This document shows positions 15,342 to 31,717 of a DNA stretch of 64,000 nt, piece after piece; position 1 is the stretch's first letter, and the number at the start of each line of letters is the position of its first letter. The DNA is taken from NCBI GenBank assembly GCA_946411205.1, contig CAMKDG010000001.1, forward strand, positions 8,478-72,477, written 5' to 3'. The position numbers were made by a program, and so were the translations under genes. The stretch comes from an uncultured Desulfotomaculum sp. GTDB taxonomy: Bacteria; Bacillota; Desulfotomaculia; Desulfotomaculales; Desulfotomaculaceae. Under the pieces are notes generated by a model, which saw only the letters and a program-made list of their open reading frames with translations, ran no database searches and was not told the DNA's origin.

Positions 15342-18300
15342 ATGCGGAAGATGAATAGGCGCGATTTTTTAAAAAATATAAGCCTTGGAACTACCGGGTT
15401 AGCTTTGGTAGCTACTCCTGCCCTAGCCGGAGAGTCCCAGGGTAAGATTACCGGAGAAAAACTACCTGCCAAAATAAGAAAAGTTAAAGAAACCTATTCT
15501 ATATGTTGTTTCTGTGGCTGCGGTTGCGGCCTATTGCTGTATTCTAACGAAGAAGATCGTTTAGTCTTTTCTGAAGGTTACCCGGACCATCCAGTTAATG
15601 CCGGAACCATTTGCCCTAAGGGAAACGGCATCATTGAAGGAAATACTGTTATCAACAAAAAAAGAAACCGTGAATCTAACAGACTGCGGGTTACCAAACC
15701 CCTTTACCGTGCTCCCGGTAGTAGTAAATGGGAAGAGAAAAGCTGGGACTGGGTTATGGCTGAAATTGCTCAGAGAGTTAAGAAAACCCGTGATGAATCC
15801 TTTGTGGAGAAGGATGAGCATGGCGTAACTGTCAACAGGACAACTGCCATGGCTCACGTTGGTGCAGCAGCCCTTGATAATGAAGAGATTTACCTCTTGC
15901 ACAAAATGTACCGAGCCTTGGGCATGCTTAATATTGAACACTGTGCCCGACTCTGACACTCGTCCACGGTAGCCGGTCTGGCTCCCAGTTTCGGACGCGG
16001 AATTATGACCAATCACTTTGTTGATTATAGAAATGCCGATGTAGTTTTAATCATTGGCTCAAATACTGCAGAAAATCACCCCATGGGCATGAAATGGGCC
16101 ATGAAAGCCAAGGAAAAAGGTGCCAAACTCATTGCCGTTGACCCAAGGGTTAGTAAATCAGCTAGCATGTGTCATGTCCATGCACGGCTACGGCCTGGTA
16201 CCGATATTGCATTCATTAATGGCATGATGAATTATATCATTGAGAATGATCTTTGGTTTAAAGACTATGTGCTCAATTATACCAATGCCAGCTTTTTAAT
16301 CCATCCCGACTATAAATGCGAAGATGGTATCTTCTCAGGCTTTACAGATATTGATGGTAAACTAAGTTATGATACCGCCACCTGGCAATATCAAAAGGAT
16401 GGCGATGTCATCAAAAAGGATCCCACCTTACAAGATCCCAATTGTGTTTTCCAAATTCTCAAGAAGCATGTAAGTCGTTATGATATTAAAACTGTCTGTC
16501 AAATTACTGGTACACCGGAAGATACATACAGAAAGGTCTGTGAAATGTATGCTTCCAGTGGCAAACGGGATAAAGCAGGCTGTGTTATCTATGGTATGGG
16601 CATAACTATGCACTCTGTTGGTACACAAAATGCCAGAGCACTTTGTGTATTGCAGTTGCTTCTTGGTAATATGGGTATTCCCGGCGGTGGTGTCAATGCT
16701 CAGCGTGGTGAACAAAACGTTCAGGGCTCCACTGATATGGCTATGCTGCATGGCAATCTACCCGGTTACCTGGGTATGGTTTACGCCAATAAACACAAAA
16801 CATTGGCGGAGTATATTGAAAAAGAAACCCCCACGGGATATTGGTCTAATAAACCTAAGTTTTTAGTCAGTCAGTTAAAGGCTTGGTACGGGGATAAAGC
16901 AACCCCAGAAAATGATTTTTGTTATGATTGGCTGCCTAAACATGACGGAAAGAACCGTTCCTACATGAGTTTATTCAATTACATGGAAAAAGGTGAAGTA
17001 AAGGGCTTTTTTGTAGCCGGTCAGAACCCCTCCGTTGGCGGGCCCTCCACGATCCAAGCCAACCAAGCCATGGAAAACCTGGAATGGCTGGTGGTTTATG
17101 ATATTTTTGAAATTGAAACAGCGGCGTTCTGGAAACGGCCAGGGGCTGATCCAAGTAAGATCAAGACCGAAGTATTCCTTTTGCCGGCGGCCATGTCCTT
17201 TGAAAAGGAAGGCTCGGTTACCAATGCCGGGCGTTGGATGCAGTGGCGTTATAAGGCTGTAAATCCGCCTGGGGAAGCTAAATCCGATCTTTGGATGTTC
17301 TACAACTTATTTAATACCATTCGCAAAGAATATCAAAAGGGCGGTAAATTCCCCGATCCAGTATTAAATATGACCTGGGATTATGATCTACCGGGTGAGG
17401 AAGAACCGGATATTGCCAAGGTAGCTAAAGAAATTAACGGCTATGAGGTTGCCACCGGCAATGTACTGTCGGGTTTTGCTAAGTTAGCAGCGGATGGTTC
17501 CACTGCTTGTGGTAACTGGTGTCTCAGTGGCTATTGGTTTGAGGATAAAGATGCCAAGGTGCCGGCTTGCAAACGCCGGATTAACAAAGACCCCTCTGGC
17601 ATGGGTGTATTCCCGCAATATGCCTTTTCTTGGCCAGCTAACCGTCGTATTGCTTATAACCGTTGTTCCGCCGACCCTGCGGGCAATCCCTGGAATCCCC
17701 AGAAGCCCTATGCCAGATGGGATGTACTGGCGGGCAAATGGGTAATCCCAGACGTACCCGACTTCAAGGCTACAGAACCAGCACCTAATCCCAGTGACCC
17801 TCCCATTCCAGTGCCACCGGAGAAGTCGGCTGTGGATGCCTATATTATGTCCGAGGACGGTCATGGACGTTTATTTGCTGTTAAAGGCTTAAGTGACGGC
17901 CCGTTGCCGGAACACTATGAACCCTATGAAAGTCCCTTTAGAAATCTTATTTCTCAGCAACAAAATAACCCGATGGCACTTACCTTTAAAACCGGTTTAT
18001 TTAGTAAAATAGCAGAAATTGGTAGTGAGAAATATCCCTGTGTCGCCATTACTGTTCATCTTGTAGAACATTACCAAAGTGGTGCAACCACCCGGAATTG
18101 TCCCTCCTTAGCTGAAATTTCAGCTCATATGTTTGTTAACATTTCACCTAGTTTAGCTCAAAAAATTGGGGTTAAGAATGGTGATGATGTTATTGTGGAA
18201 TCTGTTCGGGGCCAAATCACCTGTAAGGCGGCTGTTAACGGTGTCTGTGTGCCGCTAATGGTCAACGGCAAAGAAACCGAAGTGATATCTATGCCTTATT

Positions 18301-18431
18301 CCTGGGGCTTTATGGGTATAGCCACAGGTGCCTCGGCTAATGATTTGACTCCCTCGGTGGGTGATCCGAACAGTAACATACCGGAATACAAAGCATTTCT
18401 TTGCAATGTAAGAAAGGCAAACAAGAGTTGA
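15342..18431 (+). CDS. fdnG: Formate dehydrogenase catalytic subunit (FdnG-like, Tat-exported molybdopterin enzyme) with selenocysteine at UGA 15954-15956
   Basis: Twin-arginine signal NRRDFLK. Fe-S motif CCFCGCGCG. The segment [30 protein letters not shown] parallels E. coli FdnG around its Sec. Track ORFs 15342-15956 and 16005-18431 are in the same frame. Confidence 0.9.
15961..15997 (+). other. SECIS-like stem-loop immediately 3' of the UGA
   Basis: CGTCC (15961-15965) pairs with GGACG (15993-15997). Apical AGCC-GGUCU-GGCU resembles the GGUC-type loop of E. coli fdhF SECIS. Confidence 0.55.
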
Positions 18432-26875: not shown

Positions 26876-27847
26876 TTGAACAATGTTCAAGGGACGAAAA
26901 TAAAAGTGGCGCGCCTGTCCATCATTTCTAATACTTGTCTAACCACGGGAAAATTACTGGCGGGGCTAAGTATGGGTTCTGTGGGCGTGATATCCGAAGC
27001 GGTTCACTCCGGTTTAGATTTAATTGCCTCTGTAATAGCCTTTGCAGCAGTTCGCCAGTCTGGTAAGCCGGCAGATAAAGAGCACCCCTATGGTCATGGT
27101 AAGTTCGAAAACTTGGCTGGTATATTGGAAGCAATACTCATATTGCTGGCAGCCCTGGGTATTTTCATCCATGCCATACCCCGGATCTTTCGGGGTGGTG
27201 GAGAAATTGAATCCCTAGGTTGGGGTGTGTTGGTGATGGGCATTTCGGCCACTGTCAATTTTTTCGTATCACAAAAATTAATTAAAGTGGGTAGAGAAAC
27301 CGATTCTCCAGCCCTGGTGGCAGATGGCTGGCATCTGCGGACAGATGTTTATACTTCCGTGGGAGTTCTGATAGGCTTAGGTGCCATTTACCTAACGGGC
27401 TATACTATCTTAGACCCCATTATTGGCGTAGTTGTGGCTCTGCTCATTATTAAAGCCAGTGTTGATTTGATAAGAGAATCCATGGGTGTAATGCTGGACG
27501 TCAGCTTGCCGTCAGAAGAAGAAGAGGTCATTAAAACGGTACTGCAGCGGCATTCGGAGCAGTTTCTGGAATTTCACGGTCTGCGCACCCGTAAATCGGG
27601 TCCTTACCGTTATGTTGATCTACATTTAGTGGTACCCCGGCATATTCCCGTAGGCACAGCCCATCTGCTCTGTGACAGTATTGAAGTAGAAATTGAACGG
27701 GAACTATCGGGGGTTCAAGTGTTAATTCACTGTGAGCCCTGTGAATCCGCCAAGGAGCTTATGGAAACAACGAATTGCAGTACTTCGTCCTGCCAATCCA
27801 AGGGTTGCCCACTGGCACGTTGTCCGATAAAGGATGAAGAGAAATAA
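26876..27847 (+). CDS. Cation diffusion facilitator (CDF) family metal efflux transporter with a Cys-rich C-terminal tail
   Basis: Motifs SEAVHSGLDL, HPYGHGKFE, WHLRTDV. Cytoplasmic domain, then the tail CEPCES...NCSTSSCQSKGCPLARCP. Confidence 0.88.
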   Translation: MNNVQGTKIKVARLSIISNTCLTTGKLLAGLSMGSVGVISEAVHSGLDLIASVIAFAAVRQSGKPADKEHPYGHGKFENLAGILEAILILLAALGIFIHAIPRIFRGGGEIESLGWGVLVMGISATVNFFVSQKLIKVGRETDSPALVADGWHLRTDVYTSVGVLIGLGAIYLTGYTILDPIIGVVVALLIIKASVDLIRESMGVMLDVSLPSEEEEVIKTVLQRHSEQFLEFHGLRTRKSGPYRYVDLHLVVPRHIPVGTAHLLCDSIEVEIERELSGVQVLIHCEPCESAKELMETTNCSTSSCQSKGCPLARCPIKDEEK

Positions 27848-27988
27848 CGGCCGGAAATAAAGTAAAGGCCTTTGCAGTCCACTTTACACTCTCTGGTGGA
27901 ATTGCGGGAGCCTTTTTTATTTTGCGGAGTAACTTAACTAAGCTTTGGAGCTATTCATTGAAGACAGCTACCGCAGAGCGAGGTTTCC

Positions 27989-28172
27989 CTGTCGGACCGG
28001 GAAACGGAAATTCTCACCCTGGCCGCCTAAGTCCTCAAGTGGACAAAATCGCCCGACGGCTTCATCTGGTGGCAAGAATTACCTGGAAAGCATCTACCGC
28101 AAGTTGGAGGTTTCCGGCAGGATGGCAGCCGTCAAAAAAGTGCCGTTCGGCACCTACCAGATTGAAAAATGA
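27989..28172 (+). pseudogene. Remnant of a LuxR/GerE-type HTH gene (C-terminal ~60 codons, at least two frameshifts and one in-frame stop)
   Basis: Three frames read LSDRETEILTLAA-stop (27989-28030), LSPQVDKIARRLHLV (28027-), GKNYLESIYRKLEVSGRMAAVKK (28068-28172). Joined, they reconstitute the LuxR HTH consensus. No receiver domain lies upstream. Confidence 0.75.
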
Positions 28173-28205
28173 TCCTCTATACTTAAAAAGTATGGAGGAT
28201 TTTTT
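28172..28205 (+). terminator. Intact terminator following the LuxR remnant
   Basis: 13-bp stem ATCCTCTATACTT/AAGTATGGAGGAT (one G-U pair) followed by T5. Confidence 0.7.
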
Positions 28206-28272
28206 ATGCCTCTCAATATGGCAAGTGCCGAAAGGAGGACAGTGCTTGATGAGTAAAATCTTGAAGGATGAT

Positions 28273-28316
28273 AGCAAAAAAGGGGAGTGCCGCTCTATGC
28301 GACACCCCCTTTTGCT
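28273..28316 (-). terminator. Terminator of the MutS2-like gene
   Basis: On the minus strand: AGCAAAAGGGGG...CCCCTTTTTTGCT. Confidence 0.6.
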
Positions 28317-28337
28317 ATATAGTTGTAAAATTATCCC

Positions 28338-30248
28338 TTACAGATCCCCGTCCTCATAGACGATGCGGAGATTTGGATCGTGGCGCTTAGACATCTTGTG
28401 GCGGGCCTTGCGGTTTTCCACCGTATCAAAGATGATGGAAAAGTCGTAATTGGGAGGATACAGTTCGGCAGCCGATACCCAGAGTTTTAACCGATTGTGT
28501 TTGACCTTGCATTTTTTCCCCTTCACCTGTACCACTACGTCACCATGTTCATCAGCAGGCCGGTAAACAATCCCGCTCTCTCCGTCTGACAGGAGGATGA
28601 CGCTGTCACCCATGGTAAATTTAGCGGCAAGATCGACGGTTTTCTGTTCTGGCAATGAACGCAGCAAGCGGCTTTTAGGTGCTTTCATGACCGTTCCGTT
28701 GGGTGCGTCGCCGGAGTGTTCGCCGTATACCTCATAGTGCGCCCGCTCCAACAGATGCGGGGCAAGACCCAGATGCCTGGCGATGTTTAGGGCGCAGCTT
28801 TCCCCGGTTTTGCCTAGCTCAAGCTGGTAGAGGGGGCGCAGACTTTCCTGATCAAAGGCCATCCGCGCACTCATCACACCGGCTGTATCTCTCGCATAGG
28901 TCTTTACCTGAGGATAGTGGGTGGTGACAAGGAACATACCGCCCCGTTGCCTCAGTTCCTCCAGGATGGCAACGGCGATACCCATGCCCTCAGCCGGGTC
29001 AGTGCCGCTACCCAACTCATCCAGTAGCACCAGACTGTCCCGGCTGGCCTGCTCCAGAATATGGATGATATTGGTCATGTGGCCAGAAAAGGTAGACAGG
29101 TTTTGCGAAATATTTTGACTGTCGCCGATGTCGCACCAGTAGCCATCCTGCATAGCAATATAGCTGCCTTCACCGCAGGGGATGTGAAGACCGCACTGGG
29201 CCATTAGGGAGAGAAGCCCTACCGTCTTGAGAGCTACGGTTTTTCCGCCGGTGTTGGGGCCGGTGATGATGACCCCGGAGGTATCTTCATTCATCCGAAA
29301 GTTTAATGGTACGCAGCTTTCTCCAGCCAGCAAGGGGTGACGACCCTGACGGATATGCAGTCTTCGCTCCCCACCGATTTCTACCGGCACGGCTTTCATG
29401 GCGGCACTCAGCTTGGCTTTGGCGAACAGTATATCCAGTATTTCCATGGCTTCCATGTTGCGGCGTATGGGGACTGCAGACTCTGCCACCAATGAGGAGA
29501 GAATATAGAGAATACGCTGCACCTCGGAGTCTTCCTCCCAGACGAGAGAGGTCATATCTGCCTGAAGCTTGGCTATGGCAGACGGTTCCATGAAGATGGT
29601 GGATCCTTTGCTGGAAGCCTCAATCACGGTGCCGCCGAACTGTGCTTGGTACTTCCGCTGGACAGGCAGTACGTAACGACCTTGCCGAATGGTGATGTAC
29701 CCGTCGGCGAGGTATTGCTTCCGGCTTTGCAGGATGTGGGAAAGTTTTTCCTTAATTTGGGTTTCCACATGCTCCTTCCTGCGGCGGATATTCTTCAGGG
29801 TCGGGCTTGCGTCGTCGTAAAGAGATTCGCCGTTTACGCACTGCTCGATTTCCGACCTGAGTTCCGAGAGGTTTTCGATGCTCCGTCCATAAGAGGCGAC
29901 CTCCTCGGAAGCTTCTCCCTTTGCCAGCCAAGCAGTCATCCGTTTGCAGGACTCGGCGAACTGAGCTAGACCGATCAATTGCTTTGGGATTAACATAGAT
30001 CCCGCCTCGGCCAGAGTGATGGTTTCATCGAGATCTGTCATCAAGGAAAGAGGCGGCGACCCCAACTGATCCAGGAGTTTGCGCGCGGAGGTAGTTTCGG
30101 CCATCTTGCGGATACAGGTGTCTTCGCTAAAATAAGGAGATAAGGTGTCCAATGTATCCTTCGCCTTTTGAGATAAGGCGTGTTCTTTCAGCTTTTCAAT
30201 AATAGAAAAAAACTCCAGGGCTGCATAATGTTGATTCAATATTATCAA
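28338..30248 (-). CDS. MutS2-family ATPase paralogue lacking the Smr domain and the long coiled-coil linker
   Basis: Walker A GPNTGGKTV, STFSGHM, LLDELGSGTDP, TTHY, and a KOW-like GDSVILLSDGESGIVY..VVVQVKGKKCKV. 636 aa versus about 780 aa for canonical MutS2. The start is TTG 30248 or TTG 30239. Confidence 0.85.
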   Translation of the reverse strand: MIILNQHYAALEFFSIIEKLKEHALSQKAKDTLDTLSPYFSEDTCIRKMAETTSARKLLDQLGSPPLSLMTDLDETITLAEAGSMLIPKQLIGLAQFAESCKRMTAWLAKGEASEEVASYGRSIENLSELRSEIEQCVNGESLYDDASPTLKNIRRRKEHVETQIKEKLSHILQSRKQYLADGYITIRQGRYVLPVQRKYQAQFGGTVIEASSKGSTIFMEPSAIAKLQADMTSLVWEEDSEVQRILYILSSLVAESAVPIRRNMEAMEILDILFAKAKLSAAMKAVPVEIGGERRLHIRQGRHPLLAGESCVPLNFRMNEDTSGVIITGPNTGGKTVALKTVGLLSLMAQCGLHIPCGEGSYIAMQDGYWCDIGDSQNISQNLSTFSGHMTNIIHILEQASRDSLVLLDELGSGTDPAEGMGIAVAILEELRQRGGMFLVTTHYPQVKTYARDTAGVMSARMAFDQESLRPLYQLELGKTGESCALNIARHLGLAPHLLERAHYEVYGEHSGDAPNGTVMKAPKSRLLRSLPEQKTVDLAAKFTMGDSVILLSDGESGIVYRPADEHGDVVVQVKGKKCKVKHNRLKLWVSAAELYPPNYDFSIIFDTVENRKARHKMSKRHDPNLRIVYEDGDL

Positions 30249-30283
30249 ATCCTTTCACAAAGCCCCAAATGCCCTGTGACAGC

Positions 30284-30308
30284 AAAAAAGCGCAGTTACC
30301 CACTGCGC
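30284..30308 (-). terminator. Intrinsic terminator inside the 5' leader of the MutS2-like gene (attenuator)
   Basis: On the minus strand: GCGCAG-tgggtaa-CTGCGC plus T6, ending about 35 nt before the gene RBS. Confidence 0.65.
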
Positions 30309-30422
30309 TGCAAAAATAAACGAAAGAGGCGCTTTTGTACAAACGCTTCCTCGGTCATCTCATAAGGCATTTGGGCGCACAAAATAAACAGGTAGTACCT
30401 GCTATGCGTACAAATCATTACC

Positions 30423-30440
30423 TTATAAACTGACCGACAT
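30423..30440 (-). CDS. Candidate 5-codon leader peptide (MSVSL)
   Basis: AGGAGG (30453-30448) lies 7 nt upstream of ATG TCG GTC AGT TTA TAA. Located between the promoter and the leader terminator. Confidence 0.4.
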   Translation of the reverse strand: MSVSL

Positions 30441-30477
30441 CAACACACCTCCTGTGATCGTTTGAGACTACAAAAAT

Positions 30478-30506
30478 ACAGTAGCATGGAATTGTTGGTT
30501 TGTCAA
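30478..30506 (-). promoter_or_regulatory. Sigma-A-type promoter of the MutS2-like leader
   Basis: On the minus strand: TTGACA, 17 nt, TACTGT. Confidence 0.5.
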
Positions 30507-30513
30507 ATCCTTA

Positions 30514-30554
30514 CAAATAAAGACAAGCCAGAGTGAATGTATCACTTTGGCTTG
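30514..30554 (-). terminator. Rho-independent terminator (minus strand) upstream of that promoter
   Basis: 13-bp stem CAAGCCAAAGTGA/TCACTCTGGCTTG followed by TCTTTATTT on the minus strand. Confidence 0.65.
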
Positions 30555-30555
30555 C

Positions 30556-30636
30556 TTACGTTAGGCCCGATCTACAGCTAAAATGACAAAGGGCATGCAC
30601 AGGATATAAATCAACATCAAAATTCCTTCCACGCAT
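30556..30636 (-). CDS. Candidate 26-aa small ORF (MRGRNFDVDLYPVHALCHFSCRSGLT)
   Basis: GGGGAGGTG lies 5 nt before the ATG. The ORF ends immediately before the 30514-30554 terminator. It is the last third of the 90-aa track ORF. Confidence 0.3.
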   Translation of the reverse strand: MRGRNFDVDLYPVHALCHFSCRSGLT

Positions 30637-30740
30637 TGTCACCTCCCCACTATAGCCTCTGAATGAAGTTAAGCGAACGCTGTTATATAGTAATTCTATG
30701 CCACAAAGACGTTTTCCTTTCTGAATAAAAGCCTTTGTTG

Positions 30741-30768
30741 ATTTGTCAAAAAGTTCATTTGTCAAAAA
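30741..30768. repeat. Direct repeat ATTTGTCAAAAA x2 (16-bp period)
   Basis: Copies at 30741-30752 and 30757-30768. On the minus strand each contains TTGACA. Confidence 0.6.
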
Positions 30769-30820
30769 TAGGTATTCATTTGAAAGAATGCTTGTATAAT
30801 TATACAAGCAATAAAAAATT

Positions 30821-31717
30821 TTAGGCACTCTTTAATTCTTTGCTGCCGGGTTGTGCTTCGATACTGTCTTTTAGCTCTGCCACCAGCATACCTGTAAGAA
30901 TGAGCAGACAACCTAACCACTGTCTGCTAGTGAGGATTTCTCCAGCCCACAACCAACCGGTAGCAGCGGCAAATACTGGTTCCATAATAAAGATGATGGC
31001 GGTATGGGTAGGGGAGGTATAGCGTTGTACTGAGTTCTGAATCAAGAAGGCCAGGGCGGTGGCAGGTATGGCGGTGATTAAGAGGCCCATCCAGACCGGT
31101 CTGATGAATTGTTCGGGTAGGGTTTCCCAAGTTGCCCCACAAGCCAAACTGATGATTGCCACCACACCAATCTGTAAGACGGCCAACAACACTGGGTCAT
31201 GCCGGGGAGCATATTTGCCCACCAAGAGAATGTGTCCTGCATAAGAAAGGGCACAAAAGAAAGTTAGGGTATCACCGTAATTAACCCTGAAATCATTATT
31301 GAGAGAAAGCAAGGCCAGACCCACGGTGGCACAAGTAATACCGATGATGGCCGCAGTCTTAGGAAGCCTTTTGGACAAGAGAGATGAAATAAGGGGCACC
31401 AGCACCACGGCCAGCCCAGTGATAAATCCTGCATTCGATGCTGTGGTATATTGTAAGCCCACGGTCTGAAAGGCATAACCGACAAACAAAACAGCACCGA
31501 TAATGAAACCCGCCTTTAGGGTATCTTTATTTAAAAAGGCAAAGCGACGCCAGTAAAGCAAAGTTAAAAAAGCAAAGGCAATGGCGAACCGGATCCCAAT
31601 AAAGTAATAGGGACCGATGCCAGATAGGGCATCCTGTACTACCACAAAGGTAACCCCCCAGATAAAGGTTACCCCAAGCAGAGCCAGGTCCGCTTGTATT
31701 TGTTTCAATCTAGTCAT
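30821..31717 (-). CDS. EamA/DMT-family transporter
   Basis: Ten predicted TM helices and two EamA repeats. The ATG at 31717 is preceded by GAAGGTGG; the track start at 31756 is an extension. Confidence 0.85.
   Translation of the reverse strand: MTRLKQIQADLALLGVTFIWGVTFVVVQDALSGIGPYYFIGIRFAIAFAFLTLLYWRRFAFLNKDTLKAGFIIGAVLFVGYAFQTVGLQYTTASNAGFITGLAVVLVPLISSLLSKRLPKTAAIIGITCATVGLALLSLNNDFRVNYGDTLTFFCALSYAGHILLVGKYAPRHDPVLLAVLQIGVVAIISLACGATWETLPEQFIRPVWMGLLITAIPATALAFLIQNSVQRYTSPTHTAIIFIMEPVFAAATGWLWAGEILTSRQWLGCLLILTGMLVAELKDSIEAQPGSKELKSA

What the first reader, a model, noticed from the sequence alone, without database searches (positions are those of the whole stretch)
28338..30248. Smr-less, linker-less MutS2 paralogue in a compositionally atypical islet
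The 636-aa product follows MutS2 along its length. It has Walker A GPNTGGKTV, STFSGHM, Walker B LLDELGSGTDP, TTHY and a KOW-like GDSVILLSDGESGIVY..VVVQVKGKKCKVKHNRL. It lacks the ~100-residue charged coiled-coil. It ends about 50 residues after the KOW-like part, with a tail (PPNYDFSIIFDTVENRKARHKMSKRHDPNLRIVYEDGDL) that does not resemble an Smr nuclease domain. My spot counts of 60-nt lines inside the gene give 38, 34, 33, 31 and 28 G+C, against 22, 28, 32 and 33 in sampled housekeeping lines. The opposite strand also carries four long shadow ORFs (28703-29969), which suggests a G+C-richer insert. The gene sits between a decayed LuxR gene and about 570 nt of non-coding DNA. MutS2 in B. subtilis has been reported to act on collided ribosomes using its Smr nuclease, so a nuclease-less, separately regulated copy has no obvious assigned role.
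Basis: partly seen in the sequence, partly recalled or inferred. Interest (0 to 1): 0.75.

Follow-up and report, generated by a model that had tools for sequence, protein, structure and literature searches.

The report
Stall-inducible Smr-less MutS2 paralogue cassette
The gene is a real, horizontally acquired member of a widespread but unstudied family of shortened MutS2 ATPases, and it travels with a conserved leader (a tiny upstream ORF plus terminators) that most likely switches it on when ribosomes stall, which suggests an inducible ribosome-rescue or antibiotic-tolerance factor.

Summary
ORF 28338-30248(-) encodes a MutS2-type ATPase. It has an intact core, a KOW barrel and a conserved 45-residue tail, but no coiled-coil and no Smr. 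GC3 is 0.615 against 0.456±0.046 for 46 other ORFs.

Syntenic Desulforamulus-like relatives have CDF and EamA adjacent, so window ~27851-30845 is a ~3 kb insert.

The protein belongs to a family of 630-660 aa proteins in Clostridia and Bacilli. In two complete replicons it sits alongside a canonical Smr-bearing MutS2.

The "570 nt of non-coding DNA" is not empty. It holds a promoter and a Shine-Dalgarno-led mini-ORF (M-M-S-V-S-L-stop), followed by two terminators. This leader travels with the gene into unrelated genomic contexts.

A mini-ORF of type M-x-[S/T]-V-x-stop precedes 60 of 86 family genes and 0 of 42 canonical mutS2 genes. Its Val and Ser/Thr codons vary synonymously.

Best reading: a ribosome-stalling-dependent transcription attenuator drives an Smr-less MutS2 paralogue that acts on stalled ribosomes, much as HflXr relates to HflX. 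The inducer and the biochemical activity are inferred, not shown. I found no description of this in the searchable literature.

The parts
27851..30845 (.). Insert of about 3 kb (the 'islet') between the CDF transporter gene (ends 27847) and the EamA gene (stop codon starts at 30821)
   Evidence: blastn homology to syntenic relatives L089, L090, L091 and L093 stops at about 27745-27850 and resumes at 30846-30863. In L089 CDF and EamA are 110 nt apart. GC rises to 0.53-0.60 inside the gene only.
28338..30239 (-). CDS of the Smr-less MutS2 paralogue. It is 633 aa from the TTG at 30239; an alternative TTG at 30248 gives 636 aa. The stop codon is 28338-28340.
   Evidence: The AlphaFold model has mean pLDDT 81 and its top PDB matches are MutS2 structures.
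28737..29273 (-). MutS domain V ATPase, residues 326-504 (Walker A GPNTGGKT, signature STFSGH, Walker B DELGSGTDP, TTHY)
   Evidence: Pfam PF00488, E=2e-36. The motifs are invariant in the family.
28476..28604 (-). KOW-like five-stranded beta-barrel, residues 549-591
   Evidence: C-terminal model with pLDDT about 87. The best fold match is the B. subtilis MutS2 KOW on the collided 70S (8r55_z), followed by NusG and Spt5 KOW domains.
28341..28472 (-). Family-specific tail, residues 593-636: ELYPPNYDFSIIFDTVENRKARH... Short helices, not an Smr fold.
   Evidence: Y597, P598, Y601, D602, F603, S604, F607, R613, K614 and A615 are invariant in A1. The same motif occurs in Lachnospiraceae, Bacilli and Paenibacillus members. 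It is always C-terminal in 630-760 aa proteins. Tail pLDDT is 57-70.
28273..28309 (-). Intrinsic terminator of the gene (11-bp stem followed by a T-run)
30478..30506 (-). Promoter: -35 TTGACA (30506-30501), 17-nt spacer with TGC, -10 TACTGT (30483-30478)
   Evidence: Conserved in register in loci from other organisms (TTGACA ... TGCTAT..T)
30423..30453 (-). Shine-Dalgarno AGGAGGTG (30453-30446) plus mini-ORF TTG ATG TCG GTC AGT TTA TAA (30443-30423; M-M-S-V-S-L-stop, or M-S-V-S-L from the ATG)
   Evidence: The homologous mini-ORF is found in 60 of 86 family leaders and 0 of 42 canonical mutS2 leaders. Val is encoded by all four of its codons (GTC/GTT/GTG/GTA) and Ser/Thr by TCG/TCT/ACG/ACT.
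30351..30375 (-). Anti-uORF strand, including the invariant CCCAAATGCC (30375-30366), CCTTATGAG and TGACCGA (30357-30351). It pairs with the mini-ORF and the sequence just after it (helix P1).
   Evidence: MFE fold. 78.5% of cells are paired across 13 leaders, against 39-50% for slid controls.
30311..30352 (-). Hairpin GAGGAAGCG...GCGCCTC (30352-30326) followed by the U-rich tract TTTCGTTTATTTTTG (30325-30311). This is the first terminator-like element. Its 3' arm can alternatively pair with the mini-ORF's Shine-Dalgarno sequence.
30283..30309 (-). Second terminator, AGCGCAGTGGGTAACTGCGCT plus TTTTTT. It is nearly invariant, loop included, in 13 leaders.
   Evidence: 96% of cells paired
30250..30273 (-). 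GGCATTTGGGG (30273-30263), complementary to CCCAAATGCC upstream of the terminators, followed by the gene's RBS GAAAGGA (30256-30250)
   Evidence: Inverted repeat I3. Compensatory changes occur in L099, L103 and L115. 79.8% of cells are paired, against 18-52% when slid.
27945..28172 (+). Decayed LuxR/GerE-type HTH fragment inside the insert, followed by a terminator-like hairpin at 28171-28201
   Evidence: The frame-stitched peptide hits GerE at 29 bits, E=8e-7; the single frame gives only 12.6 bits. Terminator.

Best explanation
Window ~27851-30845 is a horizontally acquired insert. Its core, 28337-30508, is a self-contained expression cassette: promoter, leader, gene, terminator.

The gene encodes a member of a conserved Bacillota family of 630-660 aa MutS2 paralogues. 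These keep the lever/clamp/ABC-type ATPase core and a KOW barrel. They have lost the coiled-coil and the Smr domain, and they have gained a short conserved tail (LYPxxYDF[SD]IIFxxxxxRK).

Expression is governed by a ribosome-dependent transcription attenuator. A Shine-Dalgarno-led mini-ORF (M-x-[S/T]-V-x-stop) forms the 5' strand of a long helix whose formation allows the downstream intrinsic terminator(s) to act. A ribosome arrested on the mini-ORF masks that strand, the terminators are bypassed and the gene is transcribed.

The product is then proposed to work like MutS2. A dimeric ATPase clamp is recruited to stalled ribosomes through its KOW domain (which binds uS10 in B. subtilis MutS2) and splits them by ATP hydrolysis, without any nuclease. 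Because it lacks the coiled-coil/Smr module that reads the disome interface, it may act on drug- or stress-arrested ribosomes independently of collisions. That would make it to MutS2 what HflXr is to HflX.

The S/T-then-V context matches the published chloramphenicol arrest rule (a penultimate Ala, Ser or Thr; the MTI tripeptide). Phenicol-like peptidyl-transferase inhibitors are therefore the leading candidate inducers.

**Shown:** the domain make-up, family conservation, the insertion, the conserved mini-ORF and terminators, and co-occurrence with canonical MutS2 elsewhere.

**Inferred:** the attenuation logic, the inducer, ribosome binding and splitting, and any resistance phenotype.
For: **Domains.**

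**Family.** More than 120 full-length relatives at 61-83% identity. The same architecture and tail occur in Lachnospiraceae, Bacillaceae, Paenibacillus and on C. acetobutylicum pSOL1. There are 254 clusters at 50% identity, and in the full-length proteins listed (about 630-760 aa) the module lies at the C-terminus.

**Insert and horizontal transfer.**
- GC3 deviates by z=3.4.
- CDF and EamA are adjacent in relatives.
- The cassette is 70-80% identical at the nucleotide level to loci with unrelated neighbours.
- Its composition equals that of the L005 lineage, where gene and flanks are both about 0.53 GC.

**Leader.**
- It is conserved in register across organisms.
- It has no Rfam match.
- A profile HMM of the leader finds it only directly upstream of family genes in 2.06 Mb of held sequence.
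- The mini-ORF is present in 60 of 86 family leaders and 0 of 42 canonical ones (Fisher p=4e-16). In 49 of 60 it is at least 60% paired to a downstream strand.
- An upstream terminator is present in 72 of 88 family leaders and 3 of 42 canonical ones.
- Codon variation is synonymous.
- Related mini-ORFs are MSV[VST]VLN in Bacilli and MSV-stop on pSOL1.
- In the rumen-type leaders the mini-ORF strand pairs with the strand directly preceding the U-tract.

**Paralogy.**

**Precedents.**
- MutS2 splits ribosomes by ATPase activity without cleavage, its KOW binds uS10, and the deletion mutant is sensitive to chloramphenicol, tetracycline and erythromycin (PMC10897456).
- The Smr-less plant MutS2A is needed against erythromycin and chloramphenicol (10.1101/2025.09.02.673837).
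- HflXr is controlled by a small-ORF attenuator (PMC6310831).
- Chloramphenicol stalls ribosomes when Ala, Ser or Thr is penultimate, as in MTI (10.1101/2021.06.17.448903).
Against: There are no expression or biochemical data for any family member.

In the window-type leader, thermodynamic folding keeps the second terminator even with the mini-ORF masked (-43.5 against -40.0 kcal/mol for the candidate antiterminator). The switch is therefore not demonstrated. Covariation is modest, and the tested structure was derived from the window sequence.

The mini-ORF motif was defined after seeing the data. Twenty-six of 86 leaders did not match my pattern. Lachnospiraceae versions (MLIV...) lack the S/T-V context, so a single inducer class is doubtful.

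Tail confidence is low (pLDDT about 57). Loss of the coiled-coil and Smr, which recruit B. subtilis MutS2 to collided ribosomes, could instead mean a non-ribosomal role. T. thermophilus and H. pylori MutS2 act on DNA junctions.

A canonical mutS2 in the window's own genome was not verified.
Confidence: 0.6

Rival explanations
1. A DNA-directed MutS2 variant. It would be a nuclease-less sliding clamp that binds recombination intermediates or damaged DNA (anti-recombination or oxidative-damage roles reported for T. thermophilus, H. pylori and D. radiodurans MutS2). The leader would then be only a generic attenuator.
For: The core is equally similar to the T. thermophilus and T. maritima MutS2 crystal structures. 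The literature assigns DNA-junction binding to MutS2 cores (PMC12292046). A DinB-family gene and an integrase lie next to the Paenibacillus plasmid copy.
Against: The leader is built around a translated mini-ORF with amino-acid-level conservation. That design is typical of translation-stress and antibiotic sensors, not of DNA-damage regulons. The KOW domain, the ribosome-binding (uS10) module of MutS2, is retained while the nuclease is lost. No SOS or repair genes are consistently nearby.
Confidence: 0.15
2. The mini-ORF attenuator senses amino-acid supply (Val/Ser/Thr or branched-chain tRNA charging) or general translation capacity rather than antibiotics. The protein would be a starvation-induced ribosome-recycling factor.
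For: The mini-ORFs are rich in Val, Leu and Ile (MLIV..., MSVVVLN). Any slow decoding on the mini-ORF would mask the same RNA strand.
Against: Most versions have only one Val and one Ser/Thr codon, and all four Val codons are used. This differs from classical attenuators, which have runs of the regulatory codon. As background knowledge, not tested here, Firmicutes normally sense tRNA charging with T-boxes. The cassette behaves like mobile accessory DNA.
Confidence: 0.15
3. A KamC-like chaperone ATPase, meaning a reactivase for a B12/radical enzyme such as lysine 5,6-aminomutase.
For: NCBIfam NF052383 (KamC) matches residues 52-503 with 209.7 bits. This shows that MutS2-like Smr-less ATPases have been recruited to non-nucleic-acid roles.
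Against: The score is below the 300-bit cutoff and far below the MutS2 score of 573.6. KamC models are about 508 aa and lack the KOW and tail. No aminomutase genes lie beside any of the loci examined.
Confidence: 0.03
4. A decaying passenger gene in a junk insert, with no current function in this host.
For: It lies next to a degraded LuxR fragment. Its composition has not been ameliorated.
Against: The ORF is intact. Every residue that is invariant in the other 22 sequences of alignment A1 is retained, and promoter, mini-ORF, both terminators and the RBS are all preserved.
Confidence: 0.05

Closest known systems
Bacillus subtilis MutS2 (YshD; PDB 7qv3, 8r55), the ribosome-collision sensor and splitting ATPase
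   Same: The lever/clamp/ATPase core matches (E=1.6e-108 over residues 8-538, about 36% identity in the fold alignment). All ATPase motifs and the KOW barrel are present, and MutS domains I and II are absent.
   Different: It lacks the roughly 90-residue coiled-coil and the Smr domain that recruit MutS2 to the disome interface. It has an extra conserved 45-residue tail. It is encoded in addition to canonical MutS2 in at least two genomes. It is preceded by a mini-ORF/terminator leader that 42 canonical mutS2 genes lack.
HflXr (Listeria lmo0762) and the attenuator-controlled ARE-ABCF genes
   Same: The logic is the same: an accessory paralogue of a housekeeping ribosome-splitting factor sits behind a small-ORF transcription attenuator (PMC6310831).
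   Different: The protein fold is unrelated (a GTPase against a MutS-type ABC ATPase). The HflXr leader peptide is 14 aa with an RLR macrolide motif, whereas here it is 3-12 aa with M-x-[S/T]-V. No phenotype is known here.
Plant plastid MutS2A
   Same: It is a MutS2 paralogue without Smr that coexists with a Smr-bearing copy. It is required for tolerance to erythromycin and chloramphenicol.
   Different: It arose from an independent, cyanobacterial-derived duplication. It is reported to lack only the Smr domain, whereas the window protein also lacks the coiled-coil. There is no sign that it carries the YDFSIIF tail, and it is nuclear-encoded with no bacterial-type leader.
KamC (NF052383), the lysine 5,6-aminomutase reactivase ATPase
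   Same: An Smr-less MutS2-like ATPase core of about 500 aa.
   Different: The score is below the family cutoff, KamC has no KOW or tail, and the genomic context differs.
Chloramphenicol-inducible leader peptides (cat86 and cmlA type) and the MTI/MAI arrest tripeptides
   Same: A very short Shine-Dalgarno-led ORF with Ser/Thr in the penultimate position when Val occupies the P site. The cat86 and cmlA comparison is from memory.
   Different: The known examples control translation of cat and cml genes by unmasking the RBS. Here intrinsic terminators follow the mini-ORF, and the regulated gene is an ATPase.

Membership tests
MutS2 (TIGR01069 'endonuclease MutS2') | MutS core/lever, clamp and domain V ABC-type ATPase, without MutS domains I and II | tested here: met
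   TIGR01069 scores 573.6 bits (cutoff 400) over residues 8-509. PF00488 E=2e-36. PDB MutS2 hits from residue 8. Foldseek top hits are MutS2.
MutS2 (TIGR01069 'endonuclease MutS2') | C-terminal Smr (small MutS-related) domain | tested here: not met
   No Smr by Pfam at E<=1. The NCBIfam match stops at model position 513 of 790. The tail models as short helices and gives no Smr fold hit. Canonical controls end in ...HGKGTG...GG.GVT.
MutS2 (TIGR01069 'endonuclease MutS2') | Long coiled-coil linker between the ATPase and KOW | tested here: not met
   Query 8-538 aligns to Bsu 6-543 and query 540-594 to Bsu 635-688. Only about 30-40 residues, mostly unstructured in the model, link the domains.
MutS2 (TIGR01069 'endonuclease MutS2') | KOW domain | tested here: met
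   Five-stranded barrel at 549-591, pLDDT about 87. The best fold match is 8r55_z, the MutS2 KOW/Smr chain (E=5e-4), then NusG and Spt5 KOW domains.
MutS2 (TIGR01069 'endonuclease MutS2') | Binds and splits stalled or collided ribosomes | not testable with these tools
   Requires sucrose-gradient, splitting or cryo-EM experiments.
Ribosome-mediated transcription attenuators (erm / ARE-ABCF / HflXr type) | Translatable small ORF with its own Shine-Dalgarno sequence in the 5' leader | tested here: met
   AGGAGGTG plus a 5- or 6-codon ORF at 30453-30423. Homologues are in 60 of 86 family leaders, with synonymous codon variation.
Ribosome-mediated transcription attenuators (erm / ARE-ABCF / HflXr type) | Intrinsic terminator between the small ORF and the regulated gene | tested here: met
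   Two terminator-like hairpins at 30352-30311 and 30309-30283. An upstream terminator is present in 72 of 88 family leaders and 3 of 42 canonical ones.
Ribosome-mediated transcription attenuators (erm / ARE-ABCF / HflXr type) | Mutually exclusive RNA structures linking ribosome occupancy of the small ORF to terminator formation | tested here: inconclusive
   The mini-ORF strand pairs with a downstream strand (49 of 60 leaders; 78.5% of cells paired). In the rumen-type leaders that helix abuts the U-tract. For the window-type second terminator, only a weaker candidate antiterminator was found (CCCA...UGC with the terminator's 5' arm and loop).
Ribosome-mediated transcription attenuators (erm / ARE-ABCF / HflXr type) | Induction by a ribosome-targeting drug or translation stress | not testable with these tools
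   Needs RNA-seq, Term-seq or reporter assays.
KamC reactivase ATPase (NF052383) | Score above the curated cutoff and linkage to aminomutase genes | tested here: not met
   209.7 bits, below the 300-bit cutoff. No kamDE-like neighbours in any locus.
Accessory 'resistance' paralogue of a housekeeping splitting factor (HflXr-like concept) | Coexists with the housekeeping paralogue in the same genome | tested here: inconclusive
   Met in Bacillus sp. N5-665 (short form at 1,976,303-1,978,153; Smr end at 903,980-904,732) and in Acetoanaerobium noterae. For the window's own genome only 64 kb is available, and it contains no canonical mutS2.

The most novel reading that the evidence does not exclude
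This family would be a previously unrecognised class of inducible ribosome-rescue or antibiotic-tolerance determinant ('MutS2r'). It would be a mobile, nuclease-less MutS2 paralogue whose own leader peptide (M-x-S/T-V) senses drug-arrested ribosomes, most plausibly arrested by phenicol-type peptidyl-transferase inhibitors. The protein would then split or recycle those ribosomes using a KOW domain plus a new C-terminal motif in place of the coiled-coil/Smr collision sensor. The leader would be a new cis-regulatory RNA class absent from Rfam.
Probability: 0.4. Interest if true: 0.85.

Novelty: new variant of a known kind. Interest (0 to 1): 0.72.

Why it matters
MutS2 was recognised as a ribosome-collision and splitting factor only in 2022-2023. 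What its Smr and coiled-coil contribute is still debated.

This family is a natural, widespread version that has dropped both parts, kept the KOW domain and added a new motif. It is wired to a ribosome-stalling sensor. That makes it a ready-made experiment on which parts of MutS2 are needed for which kind of stalled ribosome.

If it confers tolerance to ribosome-targeting drugs, it would add a new protein class, after the ABC-F proteins and HflXr, to target-level resistance mechanisms. It is one that moves between Clostridia, Bacilli and Desulfotomaculia in gut, rumen and digester communities. Current annotation calls it 'endonuclease MutS2' or 'mismatch repair protein MutS', and both names are misleading.

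The leader is also a candidate new RNA family.

Tried and rejected
- **Defence system.** PADLOC gave only marginal P-loop hits (E=2.7e-4 and 3.6e-3, no stretch significant on its own). Rejected.
- **KamC.** Below the cutoff and in the wrong context. Rejected.
- **Known riboswitch, T-box or other leader.** No Rfam hit at gathering score in five loci. Only a chance sRNA hit (E=0.36) appears in the window region.
- **Conserved partner gene or operon.** Neighbours differ in every locus.
- **Family-specific cysteines (C352, C358, C372, C485) as a metal or Fe-S site.** They are confined to the Clostridia clade; Bacilli have Ala, Val or Gln there. They are not family-defining.
- **Finding the source genome.** The exact look-up of P0001 found no contig. 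Organism placement therefore rests on the CDF neighbour's relatives, Desulforamulus/Desulfotomaculum at 72-83%.
- **Target-site duplications or inverted repeats at the insert ends.** None were convincing.
- **A direct count of mini-ORF helices that abut a U-tract.** The count was 16 of 60, but it is noisy on long MFE folds. I did not rely on it.
- **Literature searches.** Searches for MutS2 with attenuation or leader peptide, MutS2 with HflXr, Smr-less MutS2, Term-seq with MutS, and CAP0099 found no description of this family or leader.
Full report

Yes.

- NCBIfam's MutS2 model (TIGR01069) scores 573.6 bits but matches only model positions 5-513 of 790. Pfam reports MutS_V alone and no Smr.
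- Against PDB sequences the best hit is B. subtilis MutS2 (7qv3/8qpp, E=1.6e-108). It aligns to residues 8-538. The next aligned stretch, weakly, pairs residues 540-594 with MutS2 635-688, the KOW region. About 90 coiled-coil residues therefore have no counterpart.
- The four + strand shadow ORFs exist.
- The family N-termini (MNxHY...) and the position of the RBS GAAAGGA indicate that the true start is the TTG at 30239, giving 633 aa, identical to database protein P0001.

**2. Composition and the 'islet'.**

Among 47 ORFs of at least 150 aa in the window, this gene has the highest GC and GC3.

| Measure | This gene | Other 46 ORFs | z |
|---|---|---|---|
| GC | 0.530 | 0.461±0.028 | 2.5 |
| GC3 | 0.615 | 0.456±0.046 | 3.4 |

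GC1 and GC2 are ordinary, so the signal is synonymous and not driven by amino-acid content.

Synteny gives independent proof. The flanking CDF transporter has its closest named relatives in Desulforamulus and Desulfotomaculum, at 72-83% identity. The corresponding loci (L089/L090, a 'Firmicutes' MAG, and L093, D. putei) carry the same gene order: gcvT, gcvH, gcvPA, gcvPB, CDF, EamA, amino-acid ABC transporter, a 91-aa ORF and recJ. In them CDF and EamA are adjacent, 110 nt apart in L089.

blastn homology to these relatives stops at window ~27850 and resumes at ~30846. The window thus carries a ~3 kb insert.

Within the insert, positions 28337-30508 are 70-80% identical at the nucleotide level to loci from quite different organisms (Christensenellaceae and Oscillospiraceae MAGs and others). 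The neighbours of those loci are unrelated to each other.

The gene's composition (0.530 GC, 0.615 GC3) is essentially that of its closest relative L005 (0.528, 0.611). In L005 the gene matches its flanks (0.534). In the window, L004 and L008 it is richer in GC than the flanks. This fits repeated, fairly recent horizontal transfer.

The rest of the insert holds a decayed LuxR/GerE HTH fragment (29 bits after frame stitching) and AT-rich DNA of unknown origin.

**3. The protein belongs to a conserved family.**

More than 120 database proteins of 629-675 aa match over 98-100% of the length at 61-83% identity. The tail ELYPPDYDFSIIFDTVENRKARH is nearly invariant in them.

A genome scan returned further members at 35-57% identity. 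The members came from:
- Lacrimispora, Faecalicatena, Hungatella and Butyrivibrio;
- Fictibacillus, Rossellomorea, Mesobacillus, Niallia, Halobacillus and Paenisporosarcina;
- several Paenibacillus species.

All are about 630-690 aa and end in LYPxxYD[FLM][SD]I[IVL]F....RK. Canonical MutS2 proteins in the same scan are about 785-810 aa and end in a typical Smr sequence.

Copies also lie on C. acetobutylicum pSOL1 and on a Paenibacillus plasmid.

A library-wide phmmer search with the last 101 residues finds 254 clusters at 50% identity. In the full-length proteins listed (about 630-760 aa) the match lies at the C-terminus; many other hits are fragments.

In Bacillus sp. N5-665 and in Acetoanaerobium noterae, the short form and a canonical coiled-coil/KOW/Smr end lie in the same replicon. 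The short form is therefore an additional paralogue and not a replacement.

**4. Structure.**

AlphaFold with the family alignment gives mean pLDDT 81. Foldseek's top matches are B. subtilis, T. maritima and T. thermophilus MutS2.

A separate model of residues 536-636 shows a confident five-stranded barrel (549-591, pLDDT about 87). Its best match is the KOW of MutS2 on the collided ribosome (8r55_z), followed by NusG and Spt5 KOW domains. The tail is a low-confidence helix (610-621) with no Smr-like match.

PADLOC gives only marginal matches, none significant on its own. KamC scores below its cutoff.

**5. The unexpected part: the '570 nt of non-coding DNA'.**

I aligned the upstream regions of five family genes from different organisms. 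About 280 nt are conserved in register. In the window, on the minus strand, the elements are:

| Element | Sequence | Coordinates |
|---|---|---|
| -35 | TTGACA | 30506-30501 |
| -10 | TGC-TACTGT (the -10 hexamer TACTGT) | 30483-30478 |
| Shine-Dalgarno | AGGAGGTG | 30453-30446 |
| Mini-ORF | TTG ATG TCG GTC AGT TTA TAA | 30443-30423 |
| Hairpin | | 30405-30384 |
| Invariant segment | CCCAAATGCC | 30375-30366 |
| Hairpin plus U-rich tract | | 30352-30311 |
| Terminator | AGCGCAGTGGGTAACTGCGC + T6 | 30309-30283 |
| Complement of the invariant segment | GGCATTTGGGG | 30273-30263 |
| RBS | | 30256-30250 |

Rfam has no match.

With 80 metagenomic loci and the genome loci, the pattern generalises. 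The mini-ORF reads TTG-xxx-(TCG/TCT/ACG/ACT)-(GTC/GTT/GTG/GTA)-xxx-TAA, that is M-x-[S/T]-V-x-stop. Its third-position variation is synonymous.

Other versions are:
- Bacilli: MSV[VST]VLN-stop.
- Lachnospiraceae: MLIV....
- pSOL1: GTG AGT GTT TAG.

The counts against canonical mutS2 leaders are as follows.

| Feature | Family leaders | Canonical mutS2 leaders | Source |
|---|---|---|---|
| Mini-ORF matching the motif | 60 of 86 distinct | 0 of 42 | (Fisher p=4e-16) |
| Terminator-like hairpin upstream of the gene | 72 of 88 | 3 of 42 | |

The motif was defined post hoc, so the control matters more than the p-value. A profile HMM of the window-type leader hits only the position directly upstream of family genes in 2.06 Mb of held sequence.

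**6. How the leader probably works.**

In MFE folds the mini-ORF and the 10-15 nt after it form the 5' strand of a long helix with a downstream strand. In the window, UCGGUCAG/UUUAUAAGG/AUUUG pairs with CAAAU/GCCUUAUGAG/AUGACCGA. In 49 of 60 leaders at least 60% of mini-ORF nucleotides are paired to a downstream partner.

Across 13 window-type leaders, 78.5% of cells in this fold are paired, against 39-50% when partners are slid. The covariation score exceeds all 500 shuffles. Because the structure was taken from the window sequence, I treat this as moderate support.

In the short rumen-type leaders the 3' strand of this helix is immediately followed by the U-tract. The mini-ORF there is literally the 5' arm of the terminator, and a ribosome held on it would prevent termination.

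In other leaders a separate terminator follows, and a four-strand scheme is plausible. One example is L013, where the anti-SD strand GCCUCCGCUG can pair with the terminator's 5' arm.

For the window-type second terminator I found only a weaker candidate antiterminator: CCCA...UGC pairing with the terminator's 5' arm and its invariant GUGGG loop, at -40.0 against -43.5 kcal/mol.

There is also a long-range pairing of CCCAAATGCC with GGCATTTGGG downstream of the terminator. It has compensatory changes in three sequences and 79.8% of cells paired. Its role is unexplained.

The attenuator logic is therefore well supported in outline but not resolved in detail.

**7. What the protein probably does.**

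Published work provides four precedents.
- B. subtilis MutS2 splits stalled ribosomes with its ATPase and without mRNA cleavage. Its KOW binds uS10. Its Smr and KOW recruit it to collisions. The deletion mutant is hypersensitive to chloramphenicol, tetracycline and erythromycin (PMC10897456).
- The Smr-less plant MutS2A is required, non-redundantly, against erythromycin and chloramphenicol.
- HflXr is an accessory paralogue of the splitting factor HflX. It is induced through a small-ORF attenuator and confers resistance.
- Chloramphenicol arrests ribosomes when Ala, Ser or Thr is penultimate, and the tripeptide MTI suffices.

Taken together, the most economical reading is as follows. A ribosome arrested on M-x-S/T-V opens the leader. 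The induced ATPase then acts on arrested ribosomes through its KOW and tail, without needing the disome-reading coiled-coil/Smr module.

This step is inference. The MLIV-type mini-ORFs do not fit the chloramphenicol rule, so different clades may sense different insults.

**8. Rivals.**

- A DNA-junction role cannot be excluded from sequence. It does not explain a translated, peptide-conserved sensor upstream or the retention of KOW after loss of the nuclease.
- Amino-acid sensing is possible but is poorly served by single Val and Ser codons that use all synonymous codons.
- KamC-like and defence roles fail their tests.
- Pseudogene status is contradicted by the intact ORF and the intact regulatory elements.

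**9. Novelty and verdict.**

Databases label these proteins 'endonuclease MutS2' or 'DNA mismatch repair protein MutS'. Seven literature searches found no description of a bacterial Smr-less, coiled-coil-less MutS2 paralogue or of its leader. Subscription-only literature was not searchable.

I classify it as a new variant of a known kind: the MutS2 family combined with ribosome-mediated attenuation.

The main added value is threefold:
- the proof of insertion;
- the definition of the family;
- the conserved stalling-sensor leader, which converts 'no obvious role' into a testable hypothesis.

Noticed in passing
window 30737-30768 and 30494-30509: The 16-nt motif GTT[GC]ATTTGTCAAAAA (minus strand TTTTTGACAAAT[GC]AAC) occurs twice in tandem just downstream of the EamA stop. 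A third copy, 81% identical, overlaps the -35 box of the cassette promoter. These could be operator sites, duplicated promoter remnants or chance (family D1).
   Followed up: no
window 30263-30273 with 30366-30375: A long-range complementarity, CCCAAATGCC with GGCATTTGGGG, brackets both leader terminators. It shows compensatory changes in other leaders (I3). Its role is unexplained; it might stabilise the read-through transcript, expose the RBS or act as a decoy.
   Followed up: partly
window 15342-15956 and 16005-18431: Two consecutive ORFs together match formate dehydrogenase alpha. The 808-aa ORF starts at model position 212 of 1009. This looks like an in-frame selenocysteine (TGA) codon or a split gene upstream.
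   Followed up: no
residues C45, C312, C352, C358, C372, C485 of the protein (window 28338-30248): These cysteines are invariant in the 23 close relatives (MAQCGLHIPC, YWCDIGD, GESCAL). C358, C372 and C485 are shared by the other Clostridia-clade members examined and are replaced by Ala, Val, Gln, His or Asn in Bacilli, Paenibacillus and canonical MutS2. This may be a clade-specific redox or metal feature, or simply lineage composition.
   Followed up: partly
L174 (C. acetobutylicum pSOL1, NC_001988.2 102908-104797): The model solventogen carries a family member annotated 'endonuclease MutS2' on its megaplasmid. It has a 3-codon mini-ORF (GTG AGT GTT TAG) and a terminator upstream, and sits next to a TetR regulator and an MMPL transporter. 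It is a convenient experimental system.
   Followed up: partly
L175 (Paenibacillus sp. IHB B 3084 plasmid pHD01): This family member lies on a 115-kb plasmid beside a DinB-family gene and a tyrosine recombinase. It has two strong upstream terminators, but my pattern detected no M-S-V mini-ORF.
   Followed up: no
window 28171-28201 and 28283-28309: Two terminator-like hairpins face each other between the LuxR remnant and the 3' end of the mutS2-like gene. This suggests the LuxR fragment once had its own transcription unit.
   Followed up: no
L001 / L121 leader (about 60 nt upstream of the gene): In this Oscillospiraceae leader the CCCAAATGCC segment is duplicated downstream of the terminator, immediately before its complement (CCCAAATGCCATTTGG). 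This forms a local hairpin that could replace the long-range pairing.
   Followed up: no
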